DNA of 64,000 nt from Minisyncoccota bacterium (GCA_041657645.1 JBBABL010000001.1:1407-65406), one strand, 5' to 3'. Counted from the stretch's first letter, positions 3 through 59,917 are shown. Program-made: numbers and translations. Notes: generated by a model not told the origin, from the letters alone.

Positions 3-1577
3 GCTGTATGTAGACATAGCGACCTAGAGCCAAAGAGTAGCTGTAGGTTATGCTTAGTTTCAATCAAAGGAATAAATGGATTTCATACTTCCTGTTCAAC
101 GTATGTTGAGAATGGAATGGAGGTAACAACCGATTCTCCAGAAATTAGAAAATTAAGAAAGATTAATTTAGAACTTTTGTTTTCTCAACACATAGAACAA
201 TGCAACCAATGTAATTGGAAATATAAATGTAGGCTTTTGTCTTTAGCAAAGGACTATAATATTAAAATAACAAAGTTTAATGACAGAAAGAAAGGTTTCC
301 CTGAAAAGAAATTCGGACCATCGATAGTTTTTGATAGCTCAAAGTGTATTGATTGTAAAAACTGTGTTCAGATGTGCCAAAAACAAGGAATAGGATATTT
401 AACGGTTAAAGAAAAAGATGGTTTTTTCCAAGTAGTCACGGATCCGAAAAAAGAGTGTGTCTATTGCGGACAGTGCATAACTCATTGTCCAAGCGGAGCC
501 TTTGAAGAAGTAAGTTCAGTTGAAGATGTTGAAAAAGAATTAAAGAATAATTATGTTGTCTTTCAGTTTGCGCCTGCGATTAGAAGTAGTATTGGTGAAG
601 AATTCGGAATGCCTTATGGCTCTATAACTACAGGCAAGCTTGCTGCTAGTATTAAAAAATTAGGAGCAAAGAAAGTTTTTGATGTGTCTGTAAGCGCAGA
701 TATAACTACAATTGAAGAAGGAGGTGAGTTAATTGAGAGATTAAGTAGTGGTAAAAATTTACCAATGTTTACTTCTTGTTGTCCTTCTTGGGTTAGGTAT
801 GTTGAAGTGTATAGACCAGAATTAGCAAAAAATTTAACATCAGTAAGATCGCCACATATAATTTTAGGAGGTTTAACAAAAACATATTTTGCAAATAAAG
901 AAAAAATTGATCCTAAAAAAATTATTGTAGTTTCTGTAATGCCGTGTACATCTAAAAAATATGAAATATTGAGAGAAGAATTAAAAGTAGATGGAATGAA
1001 GCCAGTAGACTATGTTTTAACAACTAGAGAATTAGGGAGATTGCTTAAGAAAAATAATATAGATTTCAGTAATATAAAAGATGAAGCTCTTGATCCTCCA
1101 TGGAATGAATCTACAGGGGCCGGAGTTATATATGGAAATACGGGAGGAGTAATGGAGTCCGCATTAAGAACTGTTTATGAAAAGTTAACAGGGAAAGAAT
1201 TAAAAAAACTTGATTTTAAAGAGGTGAGAGGGTTGGAAGGATCTAAAGAAGCAAAAGTTAAGATAGGAAATAGAGTAGTTAATGTCGCCATTATTAATGG
1301 TTTAGGAAATATTGGCAAAATAGATCTTAAAAAATATGACTATATTGAGGTTATGGCTTGTCCAGGTGGATGTATCGGTGGAGGAGGACAGCCAATTCCA
1401 GTAGATAATGAGATAAGGGAAAAAAGAGCTTTATCTTTGTACAAAATAGATAAAAATAATAAAATAAGAATGGCACATAAAAGTCCAATAGTCGAAATGA
1501 TATACAAAGACTTTTTAAATAATAAAAAAAATATACATAAAACTTGCCATACAAAATATTTTCCTAAAAATAAATAA
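3..1577 (+). CDS. hydA: [FeFe]-hydrogenase catalytic subunit-like protein, 5'-partial (runs off the window start)
   Basis: The frame stays open to the window edge, and the upstream residues AVCRHSDLEPKSSCRLCLV look like a 2Fe-2S N-domain. There are two ferredoxin-type Cys clusters (CIDCKNCVQMC, CVYCGQCITHCP). The H-cluster signatures FTSCCPSWV, MPCTSKKYE and EVMACPGGCIGGGGQP are present, followed by a small-subunit-like C-terminal tail. Confidence 0.8.
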   Translation, partial: AVCRHSDLEPKSSCRLCLVSIKGINGFHTSCSTYVENGMEVTTDSPEIRKLRKINLELLFSQHIEQCNQCNWKYKCRLLSLAKDYNIKITKFNDRKKGFPEKKFGPSIVFDSSKCIDCKNCVQMCQKQGIGYLTVKEKDGFFQVVTDPKKECVYCGQCITHCPSGAFEEVSSVEDVEKELKNNYVVFQFAPAIRSSIGEEFGMPYGSITTGKLAASIKKLGAKKVFDVSVSADITTIEEGGELIERLSSGKNLPMFTSCCPSWVRYVEVYRPELAKNLTSVRSPHIILGGLTKTYFANKEKIDPKKIIVVSVMPCTSKKYEILREELKVDGMKPVDYVLTTRELGRLLKKNNIDFSNIKDEALDPPWNESTGAGVIYGNTGGVMESALRTVYEKLTGKELKKLDFKEVRGLEGSKEAKVKIGNRVVNVAIINGLGNIGKIDLKKYDYIEVMACPGGCIGGGGQPIPVDNEIREKRALSLYKIDKNNKIRMAHKSPIVEMIYKDFLNNKKNIHKTCHTKYFPKNK

Positions 1578-20931: not shown

Positions 20932-23304
20932 ATGGATTTAATAACATATATCTTAATTCTAATATTCATCTTATTATTAATAGTATTAATGCTATTAATT
21001 AAGAGATTGAACAATCATAAGACAATAAAGGAGTCCTTAGATTTTACCTTGTTCTCTGTTAAAATGAGCGGTGCCACTACTGAAGAAATTAGAGATTCGG
21101 GTAAGCAAGAGAAAGACTGGATTAAATCAATGGAAGATTTCTACAGTAGCCTTAATTCTTTATCAAAAGAAGGTGCCTTTGGAGTATCTCCATGGATAGC
21201 TTTAGAAATAGTAAAGCTTAAAGAGGAAATAGTTTTTTATGTGGCTACACCGAAAAGGTTTGAAAATTTTATTGAAAAAGAGATATATAGTTTGTATCCT
21301 TTTGCACAAGTAGAAAAAAGTGACGATTATAATATATTTGCTCCTACCGAAAATGTTTATTGCGGTTATTTAAAAACAACGAAACCTTTTTATCTTCCCA
21401 TTAAAACTTATAATAATATGGACTCTGATCCATTATCTTCAATCACAAACATATTTACCAAATTAAAAACTCACGAAGAAGCAGCTGTTCAGTTAGTTAT
21501 AAGAAAATCATCAAATAATTGGAGAGATAGAGCGAAAATGATTATTAATGAAGTTTCTCAAGGAAAGAATTTTACTCAAGCAATGGGAGCAACAAATTTA
21601 TTATCAACTATTAAAGGAAAAGACGAGAAAAATATTTATGAATCAAAAGTTGACGAAGAGCTTCTAGAGATTCTTGAATCTAAGATTAGTAAGAATAGTT
21701 TTGAAACAAATATTAGATTGGTTGTTTCTACTGATGATAAAAATAAAAGCGAAAGTGTGTTTTTACAAATGGCTAATTCTTTTGGGCAATTTAATTCTCC
21801 AAAGACAAATAGTTTTAGGCTTATAAGAACCAAGGGAAGATCTTTTGATGAGTTGATATATAAATATACTTTTAGACTTTTTGATTCTTCTTCAAGTAAT
21901 ATATTAGATACGGAAGAATTAACTAGTGTATTTCATTTTCCAACACCATTGACTAAGACACCAAATATAAAGGGAGTTAGCTCAAAAGTATCAGCACCAC
22001 CAATTAATCTTCCTAGCGAAGGATTATTATTAGGATATAATGAATATAGAGAAGAGAAAAAAGATATTAAAATGAAAAGAGATGACAGAAGAAGACATAT
22101 GTATATTATTGGACAAACCGGAACTGGTAAATCTTCTCTTCTTTCATCAATGGCTCTTCAAGATATTCAAAATGGAGAGGGAATTGGAATGTTAGACCCA
22201 CACGGTGATTTAATTGACGATGTTTTGAGTAAGATGCCTAAAGAAAGAATAGAAGATGTTGTTCTATTTGATCCAACAAATTTAGAAAGATCGGTTGGTT
22301 TGAATATGCTTGAGTATGATGCTCGTTTTCCAGAGCAAAAAACATTCATTGTTAATGAGATGATTAATATTTTAGATAAGCTTTACGACTTGAGACAAAC
22401 TGGTGGTCCAATGTTTGAGCAATATACTAGAAATGCCCTTATGCTTTTAATGGATGATCCTAACGATGTGTATACCTTAATGGAAATACCAAGGGTTTTA
22501 GCTGATACAGAATTTAGAAAAAGGCTTTTATCTAAATGTAAAAATATTTTAGTGAAGGAGTTCTGGGAAAAACAGGCAGAACAGGCAGGAGGAGATGCAG
22601 CATTAAAAAACATGGTGCCATATATTACATCTAAATTTGACAATTTTATATCTAATGACTATATGCGCCCTATTATTGGACAAACTAAAAGCACTTTTAA
22701 TTTTAGAGAAATTATTGATGGTAAAAAAGTATTTTTAGTTAATCTAAGTAAGGGAAGATTGGGTGAGATAAATAGTTCTCTTTTAGGATTAATCATTACA
22801 AGCAAATTATCGCTAGCTGCTTTTTCAAGGGTTGATATTCCTGAAAGTGAGAGAAAAGATTTTTACTTATATATGGATGAGTTCCAAAACTTTGCCACTA
22901 AAACAATCTCAATTATTTTATCAGAGGCAAGAAAGTATAGATTAGGTTTAATAATGTCTCACCAATTTATAGCTCAACTGCCTGAGGAAATAAGGGATAG
23001 TGTCTTTGGAAATGTTGGAACAATAGCTTCATTTAGAGTAGGAGCTGAAGATGCTAAGTTTTTGGAGAAAGAATTTGAGCCTGTATTTAATAGTCAAGAC
23101 TTAATGAATATTAACAACTTCAGTTTTTATATTAAAATGATGATGGATGGACAAATATCTAAACCTTTTAATGTTAAAACGTACTTACCAGAAAAAGGAA
23201 ATTATGAAAGAGCAAGTGATATTAAGGAGTATTATTCTTTGACTTATGCTAAAAGAAAACAAGCAGTTGAAGAGGAAATATCAAGAAGAAGGCTTGACAG
23301 ATAA
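20932..23304 (+). CDS. VirD4/TraD/TraG-like (type IV coupling protein family) P-loop ATPase with an N-terminal TM helix and a roughly 380-aa unassigned N-domain
   Basis: It has Walker A (IIGQTGTGKSS), Walker B-like FYLYMDEFQNF, and an ARKYRLGLIMSHQ motif. A single N-terminal hydrophobic helix is present (ITYILILIFILLLIVLMLLI). Confidence 0.7.
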   Translation: MDLITYILILIFILLLIVLMLLIKRLNNHKTIKESLDFTLFSVKMSGATTEEIRDSGKQEKDWIKSMEDFYSSLNSLSKEGAFGVSPWIALEIVKLKEEIVFYVATPKRFENFIEKEIYSLYPFAQVEKSDDYNIFAPTENVYCGYLKTTKPFYLPIKTYNNMDSDPLSSITNIFTKLKTHEEAAVQLVIRKSSNNWRDRAKMIINEVSQGKNFTQAMGATNLLSTIKGKDEKNIYESKVDEELLEILESKISKNSFETNIRLVVSTDDKNKSESVFLQMANSFGQFNSPKTNSFRLIRTKGRSFDELIYKYTFRLFDSSSSNILDTEELTSVFHFPTPLTKTPNIKGVSSKVSAPPINLPSEGLLLGYNEYREEKKDIKMKRDDRRRHMYIIGQTGTGKSSLLSSMALQDIQNGEGIGMLDPHGDLIDDVLSKMPKERIEDVVLFDPTNLERSVGLNMLEYDARFPEQKTFIVNEMINILDKLYDLRQTGGPMFEQYTRNALMLLMDDPNDVYTLMEIPRVLADTEFRKRLLSKCKNILVKEFWEKQAEQAGGDAALKNMVPYITSKFDNFISNDYMRPIIGQTKSTFNFREIIDGKKVFLVNLSKGRLGEINSSLLGLIITSKLSLAAFSRVDIPESERKDFYLYMDEFQNFATKTISIILSEARKYRLGLIMSHQFIAQLPEEIRDSVFGNVGTIASFRVGAEDAKFLEKEFEPVFNSQDLMNINNFSFYIKMMMDGQISKPFNVKTYLPEKGNYERASDIKEYYSLTYAKRKQAVEEEISRRRLDR

Positions 23305-23321
23305 TAGGTATATGTTAAAAT
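23294..23321 (+). promoter_or_regulatory. Putative extended -10 promoter inside the 3' end of the ATPase gene
   Basis: TTGACA (23294-23299) is followed by a 16-nt spacer ending in TGT, then TAAAAT (23316-23321). Confidence 0.5.
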
Positions 23322-23351
23322 TAACACATAATACGAATAATCAATAAAAAT

Positions 23352-24785
23352 ATGGAAAATAAAGAAAAAATAGACAACGAAGAAGATAAAATATTAGAGG
23401 TAGACGAACTTTCCAATGCTTATAATCCAGATAAATCTAGCGAAGTAGATAATTCTAAAATTATTGAAATAAAAGATATAGTTGATGATAAGATTGATCC
23501 TACTAAACCTGATGAAATCATTGAAATTGAAGACCTTGAGAAGCAACTTCCTCACAATAGAGAGTTCGATGAAGAAAATAAAATAGAAGATATCTTGAAT
23601 AAAGGAAAAGAAATAAAAGAAAATAGGGAAGAAGTAGAATTTATTATAAATGAAATAGAAAGATGGCTTGAGGATTTAAGATTAGCTAAAGATGATAAAA
23701 ATAAAGGAAAAGGTCTGCTTGCTAAGCTAGGATTGGGTAAAAAATCAACTGGATTAAGTGAAGATTATAAAAAGATACTTTTAGGGGGAAATAATATTGC
23801 AAAACAAGTTAATTTGTTAAAAGAAAACAATAAAAACATTGAATTTACAGCGGATCAGCAAGAAGTTTTGAACACCTTTGAAAGATTATTTGAAGATGAA
23901 AAAGAATCTCTTTCAGAAAGTGTTAAAAAAAGCATTGAAAAATCTGAAGAAAATACTGCTGAAGAAATTGAAGATATCTCGCCTGAACAAAAAAAATTAC
24001 TGGACAAAGTAAAGAAATTCTTAGGGAATAAGAGAGTTCAATTTGTTATAGGTGCATTAATAATAGGGCTAGCAGTTGCTGCCCCCCCTACAGGTGCCTT
24101 GAGTTTCTATACCCTTGGATTGTTGCCAGGATTTTTACCAGCTTCTGCTGCTACAAGTGCAACAGCTTTGACTAGTGCTGCTGGCGGGCTATTAATATCT
24201 CGTGAGGTTATTGAAGCATTTTTTAAAAAAGCTAAAGAAGGAGAAGTAATTAAAATTGCTGAGCCTGAAACTATTGTTAATAATGATGAAAGAGAGGAAG
24301 AAGATTTAGTTGGAGAAGAAGTGCTTGACAATCCAGTTGTTTCTGAAGAGCATCAAGAAAAAGAAATTGAGGAGGAAATGTTTGATAATCCAGTTGTTTC
24401 TGAAGAGCATCAAGAAGAAGAAATTGAGGAGGAAATGTTTGATAATCCAGTTGCTTCCGGGGAGTACCAACAGGCTCAAAAAGAAGTAAATGAAGAATTT
24501 GATGAAGAACCAATTGAAACATCTGAGCCTAAGGAAGAAAAAGATTACTTTAAGATAATTCAAGAAGGAATTAACGAAAAAGACCCTATAGAGGTAGGAT
24601 TTAAAGATAAAAGAACTGGAAGAGTAGATTCTTGGGGATGGAGAGCAGTTGATATTGTAAAATCTATCAATAACCAGCCAGATAAAATTCGTATTGAAAA
24701 GAAAGTAGCCAATGGAGGCGTATCTCTAAAATTAGTTGATTTAAATGATTTAATGTTTAAAAAATCTGATCAATTTAGAGTATAA
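23352..24785 (+). CDS. Highly acidic hypothetical membrane protein with tandem repeats
   Basis: The 477-aa protein is E/D/K-rich. It has a central Ala/Gly-rich hydrophobic pair of helices (FVIGALIIGLAVAAPP...LLPGFLPASAATSATALTSAAGGLLI), a 19-aa tandem repeat, and a basic C-terminal globular region. Confidence 0.6.
   Translation: MENKEKIDNEEDKILEVDELSNAYNPDKSSEVDNSKIIEIKDIVDDKIDPTKPDEIIEIEDLEKQLPHNREFDEENKIEDILNKGKEIKENREEVEFIINEIERWLEDLRLAKDDKNKGKGLLAKLGLGKKSTGLSEDYKKILLGGNNIAKQVNLLKENNKNIEFTADQQEVLNTFERLFEDEKESLSESVKKSIEKSEENTAEEIEDISPEQKKLLDKVKKFLGNKRVQFVIGALIIGLAVAAPPTGALSFYTLGLLPGFLPASAATSATALTSAAGGLLISREVIEAFFKKAKEGEVIKIAEPETIVNNDEREEEDLVGEEVLDNPVVSEEHQEKEIEEEMFDNPVVSEEHQEEEIEEEMFDNPVASGEYQQAQKEVNEEFDEEPIETSEPKEEKDYFKIIQEGINEKDPIEVGFKDKRTGRVDSWGWRAVDIVKSINNQPDKIRIEKKVANGGVSLKLVDLNDLMFKKSDQFRV
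24327..24473 (+). repeat. In-frame 57-nt tandem repeat (2 full copies plus 1 diverged partial copy)
   Basis: The unit at 24327-24383 recurs at 24384-24440 with 2 substitutions, encoding DNPVVSEEHQE(K/E)EIEEEMF. A third copy degenerates after DNPVAS. Confidence 0.9.
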
Positions 24786-24809
24786 TTAACAAATTAATAA
24801 TTTAAAAAA

Positions 24810-25112
24810 ATGGAAAAAGAAATTGTAACTAAATGTGAAAGCGCAATAGAAGAATTAGGATTAGACATTCTTCCAGAAGAAGAAAAAGTAGAAATAATTC
24901 AAAGAATGACTGATCTTGTTTGTGACAGAGTAATGCTTAAATTAATTAGCAGAATTAGCGATGAAGAAATTGAAGAAGCAAATGATATTATGAGTGGCAC
25001 TGATGAGAAAAAACAAGCAGAATTTTTAGCCATAAAAATGCCTGATTTCTTAAGTGTCGTAGAAGAAGAAGTAAATAATGCTAAGAAAGAAATTAATAAT
25101 AATATTGAATAA
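24810..25112 (+). CDS. Small acidic hypothetical protein
   Basis: The protein is 100 aa, predicted helical, and has no recognisable motif. Confidence 0.5.
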   Translation: MEKEIVTKCESAIEELGLDILPEEEKVEIIQRMTDLVCDRVMLKLISRISDEEIEEANDIMSGTDEKKQAEFLAIKMPDFLSVVEEEVNNAKKEINNNIE

Positions 25113-25456
25113 TGGAAAATAAAAGAGAAAGTGAAATAGGTGGTTTTGAAAATATTCCAGAAAGAGCAGAAAGAGAAATTTTTTCTCATGAAAAGTTGGA
25201 AAAATTAGAAGAGCCTGAATTAAAAATAAAGTCTATTGACGAAATTGCAGGAGGCAATATTGAAGCTATAAAAGAAAATAGTGGGACCATAAAAATTACA
25301 GAAGAAGAAAAGAAAGTTCTTCTTCGTGTGAAAGAGTCACAGGGAGCAAGTATTGGAAAGATAGCAAAAATTATTAATACAATTAAAAGAAAATTTACCC
25401 CCTTTGGAGTTGATAGTTATCACGACAAAATGACTAAGAAAAAAGATGGCCAATAG
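25112..25456 (+). CDS. Small hypothetical protein
   Basis: The protein is 114 aa. Its ATG overlaps the previous stop (TAATG). The N-terminus is acidic and the C-terminus basic. Confidence 0.5.
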   Translation: MENKRESEIGGFENIPERAEREIFSHEKLEKLEEPELKIKSIDEIAGGNIEAIKENSGTIKITEEEKKVLLRVKESQGASIGKIAKIINTIKRKFTPFGVDSYHDKMTKKKDGQ

Positions 25457-25469
25457 GCCATTTTCTTTT
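25446..25469 (+). terminator. Intrinsic terminator overlapping the stop codon
   Basis: The stem ATGGCC/GGCCAT closes an AATA loop and is followed by TTTCTTTT. Confidence 0.6.
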
Positions 25470-25496
25470 ACCCTATTTTGATGTATAATTGTCTTA

Positions 25497-28400
25497 ATGA
25501 AGGATGATTTACTTTCTGACTTGAATAAAGAACAAAAAGAAGCGGTTATTTTTAATAATGGACCGCTTTTGATTGTTGCAGGAGCAGGAACAGGAAAAAC
25601 AACAGTTTTAACAAGAAGAATAGCATATTTAATTAATAATGGAGTCAAACCAGAAGAGATTTTAGCTGTAACTTTTACCGAAAAGGCGGCCAGAGAAATG
25701 GAAGAAAGAGTAGAGAGTCTTTTGCCGTTTGATTATTATGATTTTTGGATTTCAACTTTTCATTCTTTTTGTGATAGGGTTTTAAAAAGGCACGGTTTGT
25801 CAATTGGCATACCAACTAATTATAGGTTATTAGAGTCAGCTGGAAGTTGGATGTTGATTAAGAAGAATTTTGATAAATTTAGTTTCTTGAAAGAGTATAG
25901 GCCACTTGGAAATCCAACTAAGTTTATTCAAGCTCTCGTTTCCCATTTTTCTCAATGTAAGAACGAAGGAATATATCCCGAAAATTATATTGAATATGAA
26001 AAATCTCTTAAGAATGACGATAACGATTTAGAGAGAATAAAAGAAGTAGCTAAAGCATACGAAGTTTATCAGCAATTATTATTAGATAATAATGTTTTAG
26101 ATTTTGGAGATTTAATAAACTATACACTAAAAATATTTGAAAAAAAGAAAGATGTTTTGGAGAGATACAGGAAGCAATTTAAGTATATTATGGTTGATGA
26201 ATTTCAAGATACAAATTGGGTTCAATATGAATTAATTAAAAAACTTGCCCATCCGAATAATAATATCACAATAGTCGGAGACGATGACCAATGTCTAATT
26301 GGAGATTCTAAAATAGATATATTAAAAGATAAAGAGATTAAAAAGATAAAGATTAAGAATGTTAAAAAAGGTGACGATGTTTTAACAGCAATAGGAAAAG
26401 GCCATTTAGGATTATCTCAAGTTAAAAATATCTCAAAAAGTAAAAAAAAGACTGAACTAATTACCGTTAAGACAAAAAGTGGAAATTGCTTAACTATTAC
26501 AGATAATCATAAGATGTTCTGCATGGTTCCTTCATCAGAAAGACGAATTAAGAATAATTATCATTATGTATATTTAATGTATAGAGATGATATTGGCTGG
26601 AGGATTGGGAAAACAGATAACTTATTCGGAAGATTAATGCTCGAAAGATCGGCAGACAGTATTATAGGGTTAAGAGATTTTGATAGTGATTCTGAAGCAA
26701 GGTATTATGAAACATTATGGTCTTTGAAGTACGGAATTCCTACGAGTTGTTTTTGTGAAAGGGAAGGAACCGTTATTAAAAAAGAATTACTTCGCAAGCT
26801 TTACGAGGAAATAGATGTTTCGAAGGGAGTCATAACTCTTGCTAGAGATTTAAATATTGATTTAAATACACATCATTGTTATTTGGGTGGAGTGAACAGG
26901 GGGAATAAAAAGAGAGTTAAAATTAATATTGTGATGTGTTCAAGAAATAGCAGGATTAAAAATGCAAAAGATATTATAGAGAATCCAAAAATTATACATA
27001 CACTAAATATTGATACTTCAATTAAAGAGATAATTGATAAATTAGAGAAAGCAGGTTTTAAATTAGCAAAAGCCAAAAATGGAAAAAAATTAGTTATAAG
27101 TAGTACCGATATACGGGAGATAGGCAAAAAAGCTAAAGAGCTTCAGAATCTTTTGGGTGGTTTTATAGATTTTAAATTTTATGCAGGGCTTGGGCTTGAT
27201 ATTAAAAATAAGAAAAGAAAAAATAACCCAGCAAAAGTTATTCCTGCCAAAAACTTGTTAAGAGGACATTATTTGCCAATTAAGAGAGGAAACGATGTTG
27301 TTTATGATGAAATTATTGATATTAAAAGAGAAAGTAAAACAGTTGATGTTTATGACCTAGAAGTAAAGGGGACTCATAATTTTATTGCTGAAGAAATTGT
27401 TGTTCATAATTCAATCTTTTCCTTTCAAGGAAGTTCGTTTAATAATGTTTTAAGATTTAAAAAAGATTATCCTAAATCTAAAGAAATTGTTCTAATAGAA
27501 AATTATAGGTCGCCACAGAACATTCTTGATTTATCATATAGTTTTATCCAAAAGAATAATCCTAATAGATTAGAGTGTAAATTAAATGATTCCGAGATAT
27601 TTTTAGATGCAGAAAAAAAAGGAATAGATTTGAAAAACTTTAAAGGTATAAGTAAAAAACTAAAAAGTAATCAAGACAAAGACGGTATTGTTGAGTTATT
27701 AAGTTTTGAAGGAGTTGATCAAGAGATAACAGGAGTTGTTAATAAGATTTGGGAAATTAAAGAAATAGATGATACATCATCTTTTTCGAGCTTTTCTATT
27801 TTAACAAGAACCAATAATGCTGCTGATATATTTTCTCGGGCGTTAGAAAGAGCAGGCATTCCTTATCAATTCATTTCTTCTAAAGGATTATACACGGATC
27901 CTTTAATAATAGACTTAATTTCCTACTTAAAAGTTGTTCTTAATTTTTATGACTCACTTAGTTTTTATAGAGTATTAAGATTAATGAATTTTTCTCCTGA
28001 AGAAGTTTCAATAATAATACAATATAGTGACAAGAAAGGAATTCCTATTTTTGAATCACTTAAGAATAGTCATTTGTTAAGTAAATTTACATCTGAAACA
28101 AAAGTAAAAATTAATAAACTAATTAAGAACCTTAATAATCATTACAATTTGTCAAAAGACAGAAATATTGGTGAAGTTTTTGTTAATGTTATTCAAGATC
28201 TTGAGTACGGTAAATATATTCCAGAAAATACAGAAGATGGTTTTAGAAAGTGGGAATTAATTGATCAATTTTATGAGAAAGCGAAAGAATTTGAAAATTC
28301 TCAAGCTGATGCAAAACTTCCTGCCTTTATTGAAAATATTCAGATGGAGTTAGATGCAGGAGAAGAAGGATCATTAAGGAAAAATATTGATTCTCATTTT

Positions 28401-29573
28401 GACGCAGTAAGAATAATGACAGTTCACTCAGCAAAAGGACTAGAATTTGATTATGTTTTTGTTCCTTATCTAGTTTCAAGGTCTTTTCCATCTGATCAAA
28501 AGAGGGATCCAATAGAATTGCCTGATGATTTAATTAAAGAAGTTCTACCTCAAGGTGATTTTCACATTCAAGAAGAAAGAAGACTTTTCTATGTCGCCCT
28601 AACAAGAGCAAAAAAGGGAATGTTTTTAACATGGAGTGCTGATCATGGCGGAAAACAACTTAAAAAACCATCAAGATTTTTAATAGAATCAGAACTTATT
28701 AGTGAGGATATAATTAAGAATCAAAAGTTTGAAAGAAGTCCAGGTTTTTGTATAAAGAGGGTATTAAATTTTAAGCAAGAGTCAGACGAGACAAATGGTT
28801 CGGGAAAAGATTTAAAACTTTTTATGCCAGATCATTTTTCTTACTCTCAGTTAGAATCATTTAGAAAATGTCCCCTTGAGTATAAGCTTAAAAATATATT
28901 GAAGATACCAATAAGAGGAAAGTCAGTTTTTAGTTTTGGTAAAACTATTCACGCAGTAACTCATAAATTTGTTAATGAAGCTTTTAAAAAAGAACAAACA
29001 GATATATTCAAGAATGATTTAAAAACTCTTTATAAAATATATGACGAAGAGTGGATTTCTGATTGGTATAAATCAGCAGAAGAACAAAAAGAGTTTTATA
29101 ATAAAGGAAAAGAAATACTTAAAAATTTCTATAACGACCTTAAAGAAAATCATAACATTCTCTCAATAAATGATGAGCTAGCATTAGAAAAAGGATTTCA
29201 ACTTAAATTAAATGTAGATGTTGTAATTGGAATGATTGACAGAATTGATGAAGTAAGGGGAGGAGTTGAAATTATTGACTACAAGACAGGTTCTCCTAAA
29301 AAGACGCTATCTAAAGAAGATAAGTTGCAATTATTAATATATGCCTTAGCAGCTAAGAATGTTTTAGGACTTAATCCAGTTAAATTAACATACTATTACC
29401 TAGAAGATTGTTCAAAAGCTTCCTTTGATGTTAAAGATGGAATTATTGAAAAGACAGAAGAAGAATTAAAAGAATTAATTAAAAAAGTCAAAAGAAGTAA
29501 CTTTAAGCCTTCAGGAGGATGGCATTGTCAATTCTGTGACTTTAGAGATATTTGTGCACATAAAAAAAAATAA
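25497..29573 (+). CDS. UvrD/PcrA/AddA-type SF1 helicase with a C-terminal Cas4/AddB-like Fe-S PD-(D/E)xK nuclease, interrupted by an intein
   Basis: Helicase motifs are LIVAGAGTGKTTVL (Walker A), IMVDEFQDTN (II), VGDDDQ|...|SIFSFQGSS (III, split), NYRS, and MTVHSAKGLEFD / LFYVALTRAK (V-VI). The nuclease tail has FSYSQLESFRKCPLEY, IDRIDEV...IIDYKTG, and CQFCDFRDIC. Confidence 0.9.
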   Translation: MKDDLLSDLNKEQKEAVIFNNGPLLIVAGAGTGKTTVLTRRIAYLINNGVKPEEILAVTFTEKAAREMEERVESLLPFDYYDFWISTFHSFCDRVLKRHGLSIGIPTNYRLLESAGSWMLIKKNFDKFSFLKEYRPLGNPTKFIQALVSHFSQCKNEGIYPENYIEYEKSLKNDDNDLERIKEVAKAYEVYQQLLLDNNVLDFGDLINYTLKIFEKKKDVLERYRKQFKYIMVDEFQDTNWVQYELIKKLAHPNNNITIVGDDDQCLIGDSKIDILKDKEIKKIKIKNVKKGDDVLTAIGKGHLGLSQVKNISKSKKKTELITVKTKSGNCLTITDNHKMFCMVPSSERRIKNNYHYVYLMYRDDIGWRIGKTDNLFGRLMLERSADSIIGLRDFDSDSEARYYETLWSLKYGIPTSCFCEREGTVIKKELLRKLYEEIDVSKGVITLARDLNIDLNTHHCYLGGVNRGNKKRVKINIVMCSRNSRIKNAKDIIENPKIIHTLNIDTSIKEIIDKLEKAGFKLAKAKNGKKLVISSTDIREIGKKAKELQNLLGGFIDFKFYAGLGLDIKNKKRKNNPAKVIPAKNLLRGHYLPIKRGNDVVYDEIIDIKRESKTVDVYDLEVKGTHNFIAEEIVVHNSIFSFQGSSFNNVLRFKKDYPKSKEIVLIENYRSPQNILDLSYSFIQKNNPNRLECKLNDSEIFLDAEKKGIDLKNFKGISKKLKSNQDKDGIVELLSFEGVDQEITGVVNKIWEIKEIDDTSSFSSFSILTRTNNAADIFSRALERAGIPYQFISSKGLYTDPLIIDLISYLKVVLNFYDSLSFYRVLRLMNFSPEEVSIIIQYSDKKGIPIFESLKNSHLLSKFTSETKVKINKLIKNLNNHYNLSKDRNIGEVFVNVIQDLEYGKYIPENTEDGFRKWELIDQFYEKAKEFENSQADAKLPAFIENIQMELDAGEEGSLRKNIDSHFDAVRIMTVHSAKGLEFDYVFVPYLVSRSFPSDQKRDPIELPDDLIKEVLPQGDFHIQEERRLFYVALTRAKKGMFLTWSADHGGKQLKKPSRFLIESELISEDIIKNQKFERSPGFCIKRVLNFKQESDETNGSGKDLKLFMPDHFSYSQLESFRKCPLEYKLKNILKIPIRGKSVFSFGKTIHAVTHKFVNEAFKKEQTDIFKNDLKTLYKIYDEEWISDWYKSAEEQKEFYNKGKEILKNFYNDLKENHNILSINDELALEKGFQLKLNVDVVIGMIDRIDEVRGGVEIIDYKTGSPKKTLSKEDKLQLLIYALAAKNVLGLNPVKLTYYYLEDCSKASFDVKDGIIEKTEEELKELIKKVKRSNFKPSGGWHCQFCDFRDICAHKKK
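26292..27410 (+). mobile_element. Intein (373 aa, residues 266-638 of the helicase) with a central endonuclease-like domain
   Basis: It begins with Cys directly after VGDDDQ and ends with VVHN, followed by Ser. Hint blocks are present: CLIGDSKI (A), TITDNHKMF (B), VYDLEVKGTHNFIA (F), and EIVVHN (G). Removing it restores the canonical motif III, VGDDDQSIFSFQG. Confidence 0.85.
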
Positions 29574-54721: not shown

Positions 54722-55368
54722 ATAAATTAATTATAGCTAACTGGAAGTGTAACCCAGTAACATTAAAAGAAGCAAAAGAATTACTTGAGAAAATCAAAGA
54801 CAATGCCTTAGGAAAAAATGTTGTTATTTGTCCTCCTTCAATATTTCTTTCATCTTTAATTTGCGAAGGAGTAAAGTTTGGAGCTCAGAATTGTTTTTGG
54901 AAAGAGAAAGGTGCTTTTACGGGAGAAACATCTCCTCAGATGATTAAAAGTATTGGGGCAGATTATGTTATTATTGGACACTCAGAAAGAAGGAATATAT
55001 TAAAAGAAACTAATGAAGAAATTGTTCAAAAGGTAATTGAAGCTATCAAAGCAAATTTAATTCCGATTGTTTGTGTTGGAGAATCTAAAGGAGAAGATGC
55101 TTTTAAAGTATTGGGAGAACAAATTAAAGGAATAGATGAAGATATTATTTTAGCCTATGAACCGCTATGGGCAATTGGAACAGGGGAGTATGCGTCAATT
55201 GAAAAGGTAAAAGAGGTTAAGGAATTCCTTAAAGAAAGAAAAGTCTTATACGGTGGCAGTGTTAATGCAGAAAATATTCAACAGTACTTAACGGTCACGG
55301 ACGGAGTTTTAATTGGTGGAGCCTCTCTTGATTTTGAAGAATTTAATAAAATATTGTGCGACATTTAA
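54718..55368 (+). CDS. tpiA: Triosephosphate isomerase (short, 216 aa)
   Basis: It has ANWKCN, IIGHSERR, YEPLWAIGTG, GGASL. Confidence 0.9.
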   Translation: MNKLIIANWKCNPVTLKEAKELLEKIKDNALGKNVVICPPSIFLSSLICEGVKFGAQNCFWKEKGAFTGETSPQMIKSIGADYVIIGHSERRNILKETNEEIVQKVIEAIKANLIPIVCVGESKGEDAFKVLGEQIKGIDEDIILAYEPLWAIGTGEYASIEKVKEVKEFLKERKVLYGGSVNAENIQQYLTVTDGVLIGGASLDFEEFNKILCDI

Positions 55369-56321
55369 TTCTTTAAATCCTTACCACTGTGAAATTGGCG
55401 ATGGACGTCTCTAAGATGCTTATTTGTAACATGAGTATATATTTGAGTAGTCGCTATATTTTTGTGTCCGAGGAATTCTTGAATGGTTCTTAAGTCAACT
55501 CCTTGTCCAAGTAAATCTGTAGCATAACTATGTCTTAATGTGTGTGGAGTTGTAAAGAAAGGAATATTAGCTAATGTGGCATACTTCTTTACAATTCTTT
55601 CTATCGAACGAGGCGTTAAACGGGCCTCTGGGGCTAGTTTAGACCTGTAATTGATAAACAGAGCCTTATCTTCATCACCACGCGTTTTAAGGTATTTTTT
55701 AATCCAATCTAATGCGCGTTCAGAGAAGTAAACTGTTCTAGTATATTTTCCTTTACCAATAATACTTAGCTCTAAATCTTTCTTATTTTCAAGACTTTTA
55801 AATTGCTCTCTATTTAAGGCTACGAGCTCGGCTATTCTTAATCCTGTGGAAAAGAATGATTCAAGTATCGCACGATCTCTTAAACCGCTCATATTTTCTG
55901 TGTTAGGTGCGAGTAATAGTTTTTCTATTTGGTCTAAATTTAAGAACTTTATAGTTTTTTCTTTTTGAGCATCTTTAGATAGTTTTATCTTATCAGCTGG
56001 CAAAGAGATGATGTCTTTATCAGTGAAAAAGCTTAAAAGTGATCGTAGGGCGATTAAATAGTAATTTTGAGTAAGCTTAGACAATGGCTTATTTTTATCA
56101 TCTTTATGACGAGCTAAGTATAATCTATAATTCCAAACTTCTTCAGGAGTTAATTGATGAGGAAGTAAGTCTTTTTTTTCTGTAACCAAAAGCCAGTCAG
56201 TAAATTTTTTTAAATATCTACTATAATTTTTTTGAGTATTATCTGATAGTCCTTTCTCAATTTCACAATAATCGAGAAAGTCAGGAATATGCTTGATTAT
56301 GGGCTTATTTGAATTATCCAT
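55365..56321 (-). CDS. Tyrosine site-specific recombinase (XerC/XerD-like)
   Basis: It has an N-terminal SAM-like domain, GLRIAEL (Arg I), HTLRHSYATDLL, and LGHKNIATTQIYTHV (catalytic Tyr). Confidence 0.85.
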   Translation of the reverse strand: MDNSNKPIIKHIPDFLDYCEIEKGLSDNTQKNYSRYLKKFTDWLLVTEKKDLLPHQLTPEEVWNYRLYLARHKDDKNKPLSKLTQNYYLIALRSLLSFFTDKDIISLPADKIKLSKDAQKEKTIKFLNLDQIEKLLLAPNTENMSGLRDRAILESFFSTGLRIAELVALNREQFKSLENKKDLELSIIGKGKYTRTVYFSERALDWIKKYLKTRGDEDKALFINYRSKLAPEARLTPRSIERIVKKYATLANIPFFTTPHTLRHSYATDLLGQGVDLRTIQEFLGHKNIATTQIYTHVTNKHLRDVHRQFHSGKDLKN

Positions 56322-56340
56322 ATATTAATTGTCGCTTAAC

Positions 56341-56613
56341 CTACATTGTCCGACATTTATGATTATATATCCTATCCTCTCTCTTGTCAATAAAAAAAGA
56401 GGAACAACATATGTTGTCCCAATCAATTTCTTTGCTGTAGTTTATTACAGCATTTGAGTAAATGTTCATTATGGCTTTTCTTTCTCTCGCATCAAGCTTT
56501 TGATTGATTTGAGTGATTTTAGAAATTGCTTCTTGAATCTTTCCTTTTTCGGCAAGTCCTTTAATCTCCGAAAAAAATATTAGGTTTTCCATTTCTCTCT
56601 TTCCCATAATCAT
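56341..56613 (-). CDS. Hypothetical protein
   Basis: This 90-aa ORF lies between uppS and the recombinase on the same strand. It has no motif. Confidence 0.4.
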   Translation of the reverse strand: MIMGKREMENLIFFSEIKGLAEKGKIQEAISKITQINQKLDARERKAIMNIYSNAVINYSKEIDWDNICCSSFFIDKREDRIYNHKCRTM

Positions 56614-56649
56614 TCTCCAAAAATATTATAATAACATATTTAATTATTG

Positions 56650-57336
56650 TCAAGCCCCTTTTCTTCTTTCTCTTTCTGAGTAGTCATTGATAGCTTTTTC
56701 AAATTCTTTTCCATTGAAGTCTGGGAAAAGTTCGTTTGTAAAATATAGTTGAGAATATGATGTTTTCCACATCATAAATCCAGTTGAATTATGGGGATCA
56801 TCTTTACATCCAGTTCTAATAACAAAATCTACTTCGGGCAAGTTTTTTGTCCAAAGGTTATTTTTAATATTTTCTTCTGTAACTTCCCCTTCAATATTTT
56901 TAATACAGTCGATCATCTCGTCAGTTCCATTGTATGCCATTAAAAAGGTAACTAAAAAGTTATCATAATCTTTTGTGCATTCAATTGCATTTTCCATAGC
57001 TTTTTTAGTTGATTCAGGAAAATATTCCCTCCACTTCCCTATTATCTGTATTTTAACCTTATTCTTATGTATATCTTGGTTATTAACTACCCTATTAAAC
57101 TGGTTCTCAAAGACCATAAAAAGGTTTCTAACCTCCTCTTCTGTTCTTTTAGTAATGTTGTCTAGAGAACTTCCCCAAAAGGTAAAATAAGGTATTTTAA
57201 GGCTTAGAACGGTATTTAATATATCTTCTAGTGTTTCTGCTCCTTTTTGATGCCCTATCAGGGTAAGAAATCCTTTTTTCTGTGCCCAACGCCTATTTCC
57301 GTCAGGAATTAATGCAACATGGTTCGGAATGTTCAT
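56650..57336 (-). CDS. uppS: Isoprenyl transferase / undecaprenyl diphosphate synthase
   Basis: It has HVALIPDGNRRWA, and IRTG..., RRKG. Confidence 0.9.
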   Translation of the reverse strand: MNIPNHVALIPDGNRRWAQKKGFLTLIGHQKGAETLEDILNTVLSLKIPYFTFWGSSLDNITKRTEEEVRNLFMVFENQFNRVVNNQDIHKNKVKIQIIGKWREYFPESTKKAMENAIECTKDYDNFLVTFLMAYNGTDEMIDCIKNIEGEVTEENIKNNLWTKNLPEVDFVIRTGCKDDPHNSTGFMMWKTSYSQLYFTNELFPDFNGKEFEKAINDYSERERRKGA

Positions 57337-57555
57337 ATGTTATTCTTATTGGTTCTTTTTCTTGACTTTTAATGTATATACAACCCAAAGAAAAGAAAAA
57401 AGAACATATTAAAACTAATAGAATGATATTAATAATGTCATCCTTTTTTTCTTTGACAAAATTGATTATTTTTGATAGCATCTACTTATTAATAATAAGC
57501 ATTAATTTAGTCTGATGTATATATATTAGATTAAAATTAATAAAGAGTCAAAAAA

Positions 57556-57828: not shown

Positions 57829-57830
57829 AG

Positions 57831-57858
57831 AAAAACGAGGATTACTCCTCGTTTTTTT
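57831..57858. terminator. Bidirectional intrinsic terminator between rpmA and pyrG
   Basis: The order is AAAAA, stem CGAGGA/TCCTCG with loop TTAC, then TTTTTTT. The T-run overlaps the pyrG stop. Confidence 0.75.
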
Positions 57859-59476: not shown

Positions 59477-59483
59477 ATATTTA

Positions 59484-59915: not shown

Positions 59916-59917
59916 AT

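What the first reader, a model, noticed from the sequence alone, without database searches (positions are those of the whole stretch)
20932..25456. Orphan VirD4/TraD-like coupling ATPase with a private N-domain, in an apparent operon with an acidic repeat membrane protein and two small proteins
The 790-aa protein has a membrane anchor and a C-terminal P-loop module (GQTGTGKSS; FYLYMDEFQNF; ARKYRLGLIMSHQ) of the type IV coupling protein / TraD-TraG family. There is no relaxase, VirB4, VirB6, pilin or other T4SS component anywhere in the 64 kb. I cannot assign its first roughly 380 aa to any family.

Directly downstream are a 477-aa very acidic protein with two central Ala/Gly-rich helices and a repeat tract, then two small ORFs of 100 and 114 aa. 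An internal promoter lies at 23294, and the group ends at the terminator at 25446.

In a putative episymbiont that must import nucleic acids and other building blocks, a stand-alone membrane DNA/protein-translocase ATPase with dedicated partners could be an uncharacterised uptake or export device. It need not be a conjugation remnant.
Basis: partly seen in the sequence, partly recalled or inferred. Interest (0 to 1): 0.68.

Follow-up and report, generated by a model that had tools for sequence, protein, structure and literature searches.

The report
Patescibacterial type IV coupling-ATPase gene module
This is a chromosomal copy of the "coupling" motor ATPase of conjugation-type (type IV) secretion systems, kept by tiny symbiotic bacteria with three lineage-specific partner genes; the ATPase is a known type, but the conserved four-gene set has apparently not been described.

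Summary
The four ORFs, motifs, 57-nt repeat, promoter-like site and terminal hairpin are all present as described. The 790-aa protein is a type IV coupling protein (T4CP, VirD4/TraG class).

Its N-domain is not private. It is Pfam DUF8128. It is homologous to the N-terminal region of T4CP-position ATPases in Bacillus and Embleya conjugation clusters and in Bacillus phage G. It folds like the N-terminal domain of VirB4.

Being "orphan" is the published norm for Patescibacteria: 5,713 T4CP homologues, only 148 near virB4. The VirB4 system is usually encoded elsewhere, so a T4SS outside the window cannot be excluded.

The operon idea holds and is the new part. Of 50 related loci with enough flank, 40 keep the small "FHD-motif" gene next to the ATPase, and 35 keep it together with DUF5663. 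Gene order comes in two circularly permuted forms. Four of four independently chosen DUF5663 genes lie in the same module. Two natural fusions (FHD–T4CP, large partner–DUF5663) argue for a physical complex.

The ATPase is more conserved than its housekeeping neighbours, while the large partner diverges fast.

Best reading: a vertically inherited type IV coupling complex. Whether it depends on the T4SS is unresolved.

The parts
20932..23304 (+). Gene for a 790-aa type IV coupling protein (T4CP) of the DUF8128 subclass
   Evidence: ORF. Pfam/NCBIfam VirD4/TraG/TrwB hits. Precomputed PF26449 DUF8128. AF2 model pLDDT 84.7. Foldseek hits to VirB4, TrwB, DotL and Cagbeta. Full-length homologues on conjugative-type plasmids.
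20938..21003 (+). Single N-terminal transmembrane helix (residues about 3-24), followed by KRLNNHK. Predicted topology is N-out, C-in.
   Evidence: Highest 19-residue hydropathy is 3.38, at residue 5. The model has a helix at 3-36. Topology is inferred from the positive-inside rule.
21040..21981 (+). Cytoplasmic N-domain (residues about 37-350): Pfam DUF8128, VirB4-NTD-like fold
   Evidence: PF26449. Domain-only model pLDDT 81.3, pTM 0.81. The top 14 Foldseek PDB hits are all TrwK/VirB4 (E 2e-6 to 3e-4, TM 0.40-0.45). Homology to the N-terminal regions of plasmid T4CPs.
22048..23181 (+). T4CP-type P-loop ATPase domain (residues about 373-750)
   Evidence: blastp to the Embleya T4CP gives 1e-59, with no hit to the VirB4s of the same elements.
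22111..22134 (+). Walker A, GQTGTGKS (residues 394-401)
   Evidence: G394, Q395, T396, G397, G399, K400 and S401 are invariant and T398 is nearly invariant in 68 homologues.
22336..22719 (+). All-alpha insertion (residues about 469-596) between Walker A and Walker B, in the position of the T4CP all-alpha domain
   Evidence: Helices 469-596 in the model. TrwB_AAD_bind Pfam hit spanning 380-685.
22861..22884 (+). Walker B, FYLYMDEF (residues 644-651)
   Evidence: F644, L646, Y647, D649, E650 and F651 are invariant.
23294..23321 (+). Sigma-70-like promoter candidate (TTGACA-16-TAAAAT with TG) overlapping the end of the ATPase gene
   Evidence: Best-scoring site in the region. TTGACA plus a -10-like box is kept in the 5 closest relatives. 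More distant relatives have only a 10-20 nt gap, implying co-transcription. Function not shown.
23352..24785 (+). Gene for a 477-aa acidic, fast-evolving large partner with a central Ala/Gly-rich membrane hairpin
   Evidence: ORF. No Pfam, NCBIfam or PADLOC hit. Hydrophobic segment. A positional equivalent is present in 24 arrangement-A loci. Identity to relatives falls from 71% to 19% while the ATPase falls from 90% to 60%.
24033..24200 (+). Ala/Gly-rich hydrophobic hairpin of the large partner (residues about 228-283)
   Evidence: hydropathy; this is one of the few partly conserved stretches.
24318..24457 (+). 57-nt tandem repeat, 2.5 copies (19-aa acidic repeat)
   Evidence: TRF score 245, 93% matches.
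24810..25112 (+). Gene for a 100-aa acidic helical protein of family DUF5663 (PF18908)
   Evidence: Pfam 22.2 bits, just under the 23.7 cut-off. Precomputed PF18908. Clear family membership through a profile. Adjacent to the ATPase module in 35 of 50 informative loci and in 4 of 4 reciprocal look-ups.
25112..25456 (+). Gene for a 114-aa small partner of the "FHD-motif" family. It has an acidic, probably disordered N-part and a conserved C-terminal helix (...PFGVDSYHDKM...). Its start overlaps the stop of the previous gene.
   Evidence: Divergent member of a roughly 136-aa family found in 41 loci (hhalign probability 85%, E 6e-6). Adjacent to the ATPase in 40 of 50 loci. Fused to the ATPase N-terminus in another lineage.
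25446..25470 (+). Palindromic GC-rich hairpin plus T-run overlapping the stop codon: a likely terminator of the module
   Evidence: The next gene (AddA-like) is preceded by TGTATAAT.

Best explanation
The 790-aa protein is a vertically inherited, active type IV coupling protein. It has an N-terminal membrane helix, a cytoplasmic DUF8128 domain with a VirB4-NTD-like fold, and a VirD4/TraG-type hexameric ATPase with an all-alpha insertion. It belongs to the same T4CP subclass that sits in the coupling-protein position of Gram-positive conjugation clusters.

In Paceibacteria-type Patescibacteria this gene has left the T4SS cluster. It now travels with three lineage-specific genes: a large, acidic, fast-evolving protein with an Ala/Gly-rich membrane hairpin; the roughly 100-aa acidic DUF5663 protein; and a roughly 115-140-aa FHD-motif protein.

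Inferred mechanism:
- The four proteins form a membrane-associated coupling complex.
- The FHD protein binds the membrane-proximal N-terminal end of the ATPase.
- DUF5663 binds the large membrane protein.
- Together they tether the ATPase and give it substrate specificity. This is analogous to, but not homologous with, DotL-DotM-IcmS/IcmW in Legionella.
- The ATPase then uses ATP to hand substrates to the chromosomal VirB4/VirB6/VirB2-type T4SS encoded elsewhere. The substrates are probably proteins, since no relaxase is present.

Shown: family membership, domain architecture, gene-module conservation, the fusions, and strong purifying selection.

Inferred: complex formation, the adaptor roles, dependence on the T4SS, and the nature of the substrate.
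For: T4CP identity:
- Pfam/NCBIfam hits and PDB sequence hits to TrwB and DotL.
- Fold hits to TrwB (TM 0.6), DotL and Cagbeta.
- Invariant Walker A and B motifs.

Same subclass as conjugative T4CPs:
- tblastn finds 316 plasmid records.
- In Bacillus plasmid NZ_CP154917.1 the homologue is followed by a replication-relaxation protein, conjugal-transfer genes and a separate 847-aa VirB4-like ATPase.
- In Embleya the order is PrgI - XF1762 family protein - 643-aa ATP-binding protein (VirB4-like) - homologue - replication-relaxation protein - NlpC/P60.
- The N-domain alone matches these proteins (E 5e-22; 3e-15). The VirB4s of the same elements do not match.

Module conservation:
- Among 50 informative loci, 40 have FHD and 35 have FHD plus DUF5663. 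There are two permuted gene orders, 24 of type A and 16 of type B.
- Four of four independently chosen DUF5663 genes lie in the order large protein - DUF5663 - 136-144-aa protein - DUF8128 ATPase.

Fusions:
- The FHD domain replaces the TM helix at the ATPase N-terminus in 909-926-aa forms (E 1e-5 to 7e-10).
- The large partner of L048 carries a C-terminal DUF5663 domain (E 4e-18).

Selection and context:
- ATPase identity is 90/81/75/60% against four relatives. BacA is 88/77/63/51% and the large partner 71/22/22/19%.
- The flanks are core housekeeping genes.
- Literature: most Patescibacteria carry a VirB4 T4SS, with the T4CP homologue encoded far from it (PMC12102498).
Against: - There is no direct evidence that the four proteins bind each other.
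- No T4SS gene lies within 10 kb in any of the 80 loci. Linkage to a T4SS is therefore only at genome level, and it comes from the literature, not from this genome.
- In a sample of the published table, 5 of 20 genomes have a t4cp1 homologue but no VirB4 (draft MAGs). Overall, T4CP homologues occur in more genomes (2,918) than VirB4 (2,417). This fits a T4SS-independent role.
- The T4CP homologue of the cultivated Saccharibacterium was not essential, although its T4SS was. Whether that homologue is of the DUF8128 type was not checked.
- Conservation above that of housekeeping neighbours is unusual for a secretion adaptor.
- The two families of large partner are only weakly related (hhalign E 9e-4, probability 23%).
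- Ten of 50 informative loci show no partner gene at the thresholds used.
Confidence: 0.5

Rival explanations
1. Stand-alone translocase. The ATPase and its three partners form a self-sufficient membrane device that moves DNA or protein in or out, independently of the VirB4 T4SS. The large Ala/Gly-rich membrane protein would provide the membrane component.
For: - The module is never within 10 kb of a T4SS gene.
- T4CP homologues occur in more Patescibacteria genomes than VirB4 does. Some genomes have t4cp1 without VirB4.
- The ATPase is conserved more strongly than housekeeping neighbours.
- In another lineage the fused form sits directly after SecY-Adk-Map at the end of the ribosomal operon, a typical housekeeping position.
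- The published survey itself says exaptation cannot be ruled out.
Against: - A single TM helix per ATPase subunit, or none in the fused forms, plus a two-helix hairpin is a thin basis for a channel.
- No pore-forming partner of the VirB6 or ComEC type is in the module.
- The VirB4-negative genomes are draft MAGs.
- All characterised members of the T4CP class work with a T4SS.
- DNA uptake in the one studied patescibacterium, a Saccharibacterium, uses ComEC.
Confidence: 0.27
2. Cytoplasmic nucleic-acid motor of the FtsK/HerA type, acting in DNA repair, recombination or segregation rather than secretion.
For: - The ATPase belongs to the FtsK-HerA superfamily. HerA structures are also fold matches and DUF87 hits occur.
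- DNA-metabolism genes are syntenic. A DNA alkylation repair gene lies upstream and an AddA-like helicase-nuclease downstream in 21 loci. RmuC lies two to three genes downstream in the other arrangement.
- Conservation is very high.
Against: - Sequence and fold affinity are clearly closest to T4CPs of conjugation clusters, not to HerA or FtsK.
- A membrane anchor is present.
- No NurA-like nuclease partner is present.
- The syntenic repair genes differ between lineages and are absent in the fused lineage, so the synteny looks incidental.
- FtsK-like "t4cp2" genes exist separately in these genomes.
Confidence: 0.1
3. A VirB4-type assembly ATPase paralogue rather than a coupling protein. It would energise assembly of a pilus or channel through its VirB4-like N-domain.
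For: - Full-length Foldseek top hits are VirB4 (TrwK) across both domains (E 1e-12).
- The N-domain alone hits only VirB4 among significant matches.
Against: - There is no sequence-level similarity to VirB4 N-domains (E 0.36 and 0.07). There are no VirB4 Pfam or NCBIfam hits.
- The ATPase domain matches T4CP-position proteins and not the VirB4s in the same plasmids.
- Those plasmids and phage G carry a separate VirB4 next to the homologue.
- Patescibacteria have their own canonical VirB4.
Confidence: 0.06
4. Decaying remnant of an integrated conjugative element, or an anti-phage defence ATPase (HerA-like).
For: - Homologues occur on plasmids and phages.
- There is a weak PADLOC hit to mad8 and to HerA models.
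Against: - The reading frame is intact, with invariant catalytic motifs.
- The gene is more conserved than its housekeeping neighbours.
- It has a fixed position in conserved core synteny, and relatives are encoded in 466 species genomes.
- No integrase, relaxase or defence partner is nearby.
- The PADLOC hits cover only the generic P-loop region.
Confidence: 0.03

Closest known systems
VirD4/TrwB/TraG-family type IV coupling proteins (e.g. TrwB of R388, PDB 1e9r; DotL, PDB 6sz9; Cagbeta, PDB 8dol)
   Same: Membrane-anchored P-loop ATPase with an all-alpha insertion between Walker A and B. Pfam T4SS-DNA_transf and TrwB_AAD_bind score above their cut-offs. The fold match to TrwB has TM about 0.6 over roughly 430 columns.
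   Different: It has one TM helix instead of two. It has an extra cytoplasmic domain of about 310 aa (DUF8128) between anchor and ATPase that TrwB lacks. It is not linked to a relaxase or to VirB genes. It is chromosomal and vertically inherited.
DUF8128-type T4CP-position ATPases of monoderm conjugation clusters (Bacillus plasmids NZ_CP154917.1 and CP120602.1; Embleya plasmid NZ_CP108778.1) and Bacillus phage G gp156
   Same: Homologous over both the N-domain and the ATPase (residues about 67-786; E 1e-33 to 1e-69). These are the closest relatives found outside Patescibacteria.
   Different: Those genes sit beside a replication-relaxation protein, TcpC/D/E-like proteins or PrgI, and a separate VirB4. 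The Patescibacteria gene has none of these nearby. Instead it carries DUF5663, FHD and large-protein partners, which have no homologue in the mobile-element loci.
Patescibacteria "t4cp1" homologues surveyed by Quinonero-Coronel et al. 2025 (PMC12102498)
   Same: Same phenomenon: VirD4-like genes are present in nearly all Patescibacteria genomes and almost never near virB4 (148 of 5,713). The authors note possible exaptation.
   Different: That survey did not describe the N-domain, the partner genes or the fusions. Identity between its t4cp1 hits and the DUF8128 family is inferred, not checked sequence by sequence.
Legionella Dot/Icm type IV coupling complex (DotL-DotM-DotN-IcmS-IcmW-LvgA)
   Same: Works-like analogy: a T4CP plus a membrane partner with a cytoplasmic acidic-substrate-handling role, plus two small acidic adaptor proteins of about 100-150 aa.
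   Different: No sequence or family relationship between the partners was detected. The analogy rests on composition, size and gene linkage only.
VirB4 (TrwK of R388; PDB 7o42, 7o43, 8rtd)
   Same: Two-domain layout. The N-domain fold is the only significant structural match for DUF8128 (E 2e-6, TM 0.40-0.45).
   Different: No detectable sequence similarity in the N-domain. The ATPase domain is of the T4CP type by sequence. Canonical VirB4 is a separate gene in the same kinds of genomes.

Membership tests
Type IV coupling protein (VirD4/TraG/TrwB) | FtsK/HerA-superfamily P-loop nucleotide-binding domain with intact Walker A and B | tested here: met
   GQTGTGKS (394-401) and FYLYMDEF (644-651), invariant or nearly invariant in 68 homologues. 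Pfam PF02534 31.7 bits (cut-off 20.1) and PF10412 27.1 bits (cut-off 20.5).
Type IV coupling protein (VirD4/TraG/TrwB) | All-alpha domain inserted in the nucleotide-binding domain | tested here: met
   Helical block at residues 469-596 between Walker A and B in the model. TrwB fold match with TM about 0.6.
Type IV coupling protein (VirD4/TraG/TrwB) | N-terminal membrane anchor | tested here: met
   One strongly hydrophobic helix at residues 3-24, where the classical type has two. In a sister subfamily the helix is replaced by the FHD domain.
Type IV coupling protein (VirD4/TraG/TrwB) | Closer to T4CPs than to VirB4 when both are available from the same element | tested here: met
   blastp to the T4CP-position proteins of Embleya and Bacillus plasmids gives 1e-69 to 2e-33. 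There is no hit to their VirB4s.
Type IV coupling protein (VirD4/TraG/TrwB) | Genetic linkage to a relaxase and/or mating-pair-formation genes | tested here: not met
   None among the window ORFs scanned. None within 10 kb in 80 related loci. This is typical for Patescibacteria T4CP homologues.
Type IV coupling protein (VirD4/TraG/TrwB) | Couples substrates (relaxosome or effectors) to a T4SS channel | not testable with these tools
   Needs interaction or secretion assays.
Pfam DUF8128 (PF26449) N-domain family | Match to the family model over residues about 30-370 | tested here: met
   Precomputed PF26449 on this protein and on all 120 listed homologues. The model is absent from the local Pfam copy, so this could not be re-scored. 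A profile built here finds 3,301 clusters.
VirB4 (T4SS assembly ATPase) | VirB4-type N-terminal domain | tested here: inconclusive
   Fold level: the top 14 PDB hits are all TrwK (E 2e-6 to 3e-4, TM 0.40-0.45). Sequence level: no signal (E 0.36 and 0.07).
VirB4 (T4SS assembly ATPase) | VirB4-type ATPase domain by sequence (CagE_TrbE_VirB / AAA_10 models) | tested here: not met
   No VirB4 family in the Pfam or NCBIfam hit lists at E <= 0.1. No blastp hit to three VirB4s.
Pfam DUF5663 (PF18908), for the 100-aa ORF | Match to the family model | tested here: met
   22.2 bits against a cut-off of 23.7 in the local scan, so just below. PF18908 is precomputed for the identical protein. Homologues score up to 36 bits. 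A profile search returns only PF18908 proteins.
Dot/Icm-like type IV coupling complex | Homology of partners to DotM, DotN, IcmS or IcmW | tested here: not met
   No Pfam or NCBIfam hit of that kind for any partner. The resemblance is functional analogy only.
HerA-type anti-phage defence systems | Specific match to a defence-system ATPase model plus a cognate effector gene | tested here: not met
   Only P-loop-level PADLOC hits (mad8 E 1e-12; HerA over about 40 residues). The partners have no hits. The distribution is core and syntenic, not patchy.

The most novel reading that the evidence does not exclude
The module is a T4SS-independent, near-essential membrane machine of Paceibacteria-type Patescibacteria. 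A coupling-protein ATPase would have been captured from a monoderm conjugation system and rebuilt with three new partners into a dedicated translocase or remodelling motor, for example for importing or exporting nucleic acid or for handling the hypervariable large protein. Its DUF8128 domain would also be a surviving VirB4-type N-domain, making this T4CP subclass an evolutionary intermediate between VirB4 and classical VirD4.
Probability: 0.22. Interest if true: 0.75.

Novelty: new variant of a known kind. Interest (0 to 1): 0.45.

Why it matters
Patescibacteria depend on hosts, and their T4SS is the first shown to be essential for a bacterium's growth. The role of their ubiquitous, unlinked T4CP homologues is an acknowledged open point.

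This work contributes four things:
- It defines what travels with that ATPase: a conserved four-gene set.
- It gives two natural fusions that predict who binds whom.
- It shows that the ATPase is under stronger constraint than neighbouring housekeeping genes.
- It links the N-domain to Gram-positive conjugative T4CPs and, at fold level, to VirB4.

Together these make the question testable in the cultivated relatives Minisyncoccus archaeiphilus and Ca. Microsyncoccus archaeolyticus, which carry the same module.

It also flags many Bacillus and actinomycete plasmids, typed "non-mobilizable", that carry this T4CP next to a replication-relaxation gene and a VirB4.

Tried and rejected
- Sequence profile of the N-domain against PDB: nothing (best E 0.086, calcineurin B-like).
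- hhalign of N-domain profiles against VirB4 N-domains from the same plasmids: not significant. VirB4 likeness therefore stays at fold level.
- Pfam, NCBIfam and PADLOC on the three partners and on their counterparts in other loci: no family except DUF5663.
- Partner-family HMMs against the plasmid and phage loci: no hit.
- VirB4, relaxase and PrgI queries against all ORFs of 80 CPR loci: nothing apart from weak cross-hits to the T4CP itself.
- Iterating the 114-aa protein's profile drifted into low-complexity hits (153 hits). I replaced it with a one-round profile and a merged family model.
- The 108-aa gene upstream of the fused ATPase in L092 is not DUF5663.
- The two large-partner families could not be shown to be homologous.
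- The listing of cluster members gave no organism names for distant N-domain relatives, so the taxonomic breadth beyond Paceibacteria-like lineages is not established.
- Two encoding-contig look-ups for window proteins found no record.
- One Pfam call failed through my own bad coordinates.
- The defence-system and conjugation-remnant readings were considered and rejected on conservation and synteny.

Full report
**Observation**

The last two overlap by ATGA.

Walker A (GQTGTGKS, residues 394-401), Walker B (FYLYMDEF, 644-651) and the ARKYRLGLIMSHQ block are present. All are invariant or nearly invariant in 68 homologues.

The 477-aa protein is acidic, with pI 4.5. It has a central Ala/Gly-rich hydrophobic stretch and a 57-nt x 2.5 tandem repeat at 24318-24457.

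The promoter-like site at 23294-23321 (11 of 12, with TG) is the best in the region. Such sites are no more frequent here than in shuffles. The GC hairpin at 25446-25461 with its T-run is real.

The window is core chromosome. The ORFs scanned or annotated are FeFe hydrogenase, YchF, MurB, SecA, TypA, BacA, a DNA-alkylation repair enzyme, an AddA-like helicase-nuclease, GpsA, pyrophosphatase and others. No T4SS or relaxase gene was found among them. The 38-54 kb block was not scanned; from its ORF sizes it looks like a translation-factor and ribosomal-protein operon.

**What the ATPase is**

By sequence, residues about 375-707 belong to the VirD4/TraG/TrwB class. Pfam T4SS-DNA_transf and TrwB_AAD_bind score above their cut-offs. 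NCBIfam matches VirD4-like and TraD models. PDB sequence matches are TrwB and DotL.

A confident AlphaFold model (pLDDT 84.7) shows four elements:
- an N-terminal helix;
- an alpha/beta N-domain of about 310 residues;
- a RecA-like ATPase;
- a helical insertion at residues 469-596 between Walker A and B, the position of the T4CP all-alpha domain.

The positively charged stretch after the single TM helix predicts that everything downstream is cytoplasmic. This is an inference.

**The N-domain is not private**

- *Pfam family.* Precomputed annotations call it Pfam DUF8128 (PF26449) on this protein and on all 120 listed homologues. A profile of the domain finds 3,301 clusters at 50% identity, 417 of them at E <= 1e-30.
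- *Homologues on mobile elements.* tblastn against plasmids finds 316 records with homologues that cover both the N-domain and the ATPase.
  - In a 27.5-kb Bacillus plasmid, the homologue is followed by a replication-relaxation protein, conjugal-transfer genes and a separate 847-aa VirB4-like ATPase.
  - In a 65-kb Bacillus plasmid, it precedes TcpC/D/E-like genes and a VirB4 that runs across the record start.
  - In an Embleya plasmid, the order is PrgI, an XF1762 family protein, a 643-aa VirB4-like ATPase, the homologue, a replication-relaxation protein and NlpC/P60.
  - Bacillus phage G has the pair gp155 (VirB-like) and gp156 (the homologue).
- *The N-domain alone matches these proteins.* hhalign gives E 5e-22 with probability 99.4%. 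blastp gives 3e-15. The VirB4 proteins of the same elements do not match either domain.

The protein is therefore a member of a T4CP subclass used by monoderm conjugation systems.

**Fold of the N-domain**

The full-length model's best PDB matches are full-length VirB4 (TrwK, E 1e-12), ahead of TrwB.

A separate model of residues 28-372 (pLDDT 81.3, pTM 0.81) gives TrwK/VirB4 as all 14 top hits (E 2e-6 to 3e-4, TM 0.40-0.45). Unrelated ferredoxin-like folds follow at TM below 0.2.

Sequence-profile comparisons with VirB4 N-domains are not significant. The resemblance is therefore fold-level only. I treat it as a lead for an evolutionary link between VirB4 and this T4CP subclass, not as membership.

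**"Orphan" status**

Quinonero-Coronel et al. 2025 (PMC12102498) report the following for Patescibacteria:
- 5,713 VirD4-like T4CP homologues in 2,918 of 3,035 genomes, only 148 of them near virB4;
- VirB4 in 2,417 genomes;
- almost no relaxases;
- the remark that exaptation of the T4CP "cannot be ruled out".

Their Table S3 shows the typical layout. One t4cp1 gene lies tens to hundreds of genes away from a VirB6-VirB3-TrsD-VirB4-VirB2 cluster.

In the 80 related loci fetched here, no VirB4, relaxase or PrgI homologue lies within 10 kb of the ATPase.

Being unlinked is thus the known rule, and a T4SS elsewhere in this genome is likely. That cannot be tested from a 64-kb window.

**The partner genes**

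This part appears to be new. A search of the paper library for DUF5663, DUF8128, PF18908 or PF26449 found no paper.

- *Scale of the comparison.* Relatives of the ATPase are encoded in 466 species genomes. Eighty loci were analysed. They include the cultivated Minisyncoccus archaeiphilus and Ca. Microsyncoccus archaeolyticus.
- *The 114-aa protein.* It is a divergent member of a roughly 136-aa family. Members have an acidic N-part and a conserved C-terminal helix with the motif PYxLDxFHDxL, here PFGVDSYHDKM.
- *The 100-aa protein.* It belongs to DUF5663.
- *Neighbourhood counts.* Of 50 loci with enough flank, 40 have the FHD gene next to the ATPase and 35 have FHD plus DUF5663.
- *Two gene orders.* Twenty-four loci have ATPase - large protein - DUF5663 - FHD, as in the window. 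Sixteen have large protein - DUF5663 - FHD - ATPase. Conservation through a circular permutation of gene order argues for functional coupling rather than inherited synteny.
- *Reciprocal test.* Four DUF5663 proteins chosen only for lying on long contigs all sit in the order large protein (850-1,125 aa, no Pfam) - DUF5663 - 136-144-aa protein - DUF8128 ATPase.
- *The large partner.* It falls into two families (P477-like, and a 740-1,365-aa type). Both share an architecture of charged low-complexity regions around an Ala/Gly-rich hairpin. Homology between the two is only weakly suggested (E 9e-4, probability 23%).
- *Lineage specificity.* The partners have no homologues in the plasmid or phage loci.

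**Fusions**

- *FHD fused to the ATPase.* In a subfamily of 909-926-aa DUF8128 ATPases, the FHD domain is fused to the N-terminus (HMM E 1e-5 to 7e-10 over nearly the full model). It replaces the TM helix, and no hydrophobic segment remains. That fused gene sits directly after SecY-Adk-Map at the end of the ribosomal operon.
- *DUF5663 fused to the large partner.* In locus L048 the large partner carries a C-terminal DUF5663 domain (E 4e-18).

These fusions predict two contacts: FHD with the N-terminal end of the ATPase, and DUF5663 with the large membrane protein.

Some members also carry long disordered acidic or Pro/Ala-rich C-terminal tails.

**Selection**

| Protein | Identity (%) to L035 / L002 / L006 / L018 |
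|---|---|
| ATPase | 90 / 81 / 75 / 60 |
| BacA | 88 / 77 / 63 / 51 |
| DNA-alkylation repair enzyme | 79 / 71 / 62 / 58 |
| Large partner | 71 / 22 / 22 / 19 |
| FHD protein | 68 / 51 / 32 / 21 |

The ATPase is under very strong constraint, while the large partner evolves fast. That pattern is expected for a disordered, surface-related or host-interacting protein.

**Transcription**

TTGACA at the 3' end of the ATPase gene, with a -10-like box, is conserved in the five closest relatives. Relatives at about 75% identity have only 10-20 nt between the genes. Co-transcription is therefore the ancestral state. The internal promoter is plausible for this sub-clade but unproven.

**Mechanism**

- *Best reading (confidence about 0.5).* The four proteins form a membrane-associated type IV coupling complex. 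The ATPase hexamer is anchored by its TM helix. FHD sits at its membrane-proximal end. DUF5663 sits on the large membrane protein. The complex recruits substrates for the VirB4-type T4SS encoded elsewhere. The substrates are probably proteins, since there is no relaxase. This works like DotL-DotM-IcmS/IcmW without being homologous to it.
- *Main rival (about 0.27).* The same complex works without the T4SS. Three points favour this: T4CP homologues are more widespread than VirB4; some draft genomes have t4cp1 without VirB4; and the genomic positions look like housekeeping positions. The weak point is the lack of a plausible channel.
- *Minor rivals.* A DNA-repair or segregation motor: the syntenic AddA-like and RmuC genes differ between lineages, so this synteny is probably incidental. 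A VirB4-type paralogue: contradicted at sequence level. A remnant or defence system: contradicted by conservation and synteny, and PADLOC gives only P-loop-level hits.

**Verdict**

The T4CP assignment and the real operon of partners hold, and it is not a remnant. It is wrong on the "private" N-domain and on how unusual the orphan status is.
- The ATPase is a member of a known but uncharacterised family.
- The conserved, permuted, fusion-supported four-gene module and the VirB4-like fold of DUF8128 are modestly novel and directly testable.

Noticed in passing
window 25497-29573 (+): The AddA/UvrD-type helicase-nuclease downstream is 1,358 aa, against about 980-1,034 aa in relatives. It carries an intein: there is a Pfam Intein_splicing hit, and the sequence reads ...GDDDQ|CLIGDSK ... 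VVHN|SIFSFQG.
   Followed up: partly
plasmid records (e.g. NZ_CP154917.1 = L086; CP120602.1 = L083/L085; NZ_CP108778.1 = L084): 253 of 316 plasmids carrying this T4CP subclass are typed "non-mobilizable" by MOB-suite. The ones inspected nevertheless have a compact T4CP / replication-relaxation protein / TcpC-D-E or PrgI / VirB4 cluster. The replication-relaxation (Replic_Relax) protein may be an unrecognised relaxase, and these plasmids may be conjugative.
   Followed up: partly
L087 (Bacillus phage G, gp155-gp156) and SPO1-like Bacillus phages: A jumbo phage encodes an adjacent VirB-like ATPase and a full-length homologue of this T4CP. Forty-seven Bacillus phage records have partial or full homologues. 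Their function in phages is unknown.
   Followed up: no
L092/L093 8001-10730: In another CPR lineage (42% GC) the FHD-fused, TM-less form of the ATPase sits immediately after SecY-Adk-Map at the end of the ribosomal protein operon. It is preceded by a 108-aa gene that is not DUF5663 and followed by NDK. No large partner is nearby.
   Followed up: partly
P0219, P0251, P0256, P0265, P0266: Some DUF8128 ATPases are 1,100-2,000 aa long because of huge disordered C-terminal tails. The tails are Pro/Ala-rich in P0251 and acidic in several others. They are reminiscent of the separate low-complexity large partner.
   Followed up: partly
L011 2936-3421: One FHD-family protein (161 aa) has an inserted CxxC...CxxC zinc-ribbon-like motif (CEKCGKKIKVPFLPDSNKPFYCDNC) before the conserved C-terminal helix.
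   Followed up: no
window 55365-62324 (- strand block) and 55365-56321: GC and AT skew flip sign only across a block of minus-strand genes at 55.4-62.3 kb, so skew tracks the coding strand. The block starts with a XerC/D-like tyrosine recombinase. This may mark an inversion or a replication landmark.
   Followed up: no
window 117-1577 (+): An FeFe-hydrogenase large subunit with ferredoxin-type clusters is encoded at the window start. This is notable for a reduced patescibacterial genome.
   Followed up: no
L019, L020, L021, L027, L033, L040, L047: A third neighbourhood type has the ATPase followed by a roughly 135-aa gene (possibly a very divergent FHD) and then an HlyD/MacAB-like efflux set. 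No DUF5663 was detected.
   Followed up: partly
group-B loci, e.g. L089 309-1895 and L090 1304-2926 (- strand): In the permuted arrangement the module is divergently transcribed from a conserved pair of PMT-family (dolichyl-phosphate-mannose-type) glycosyltransferase genes. Extra variable large genes sometimes lie between them and the module.
   Followed up: no
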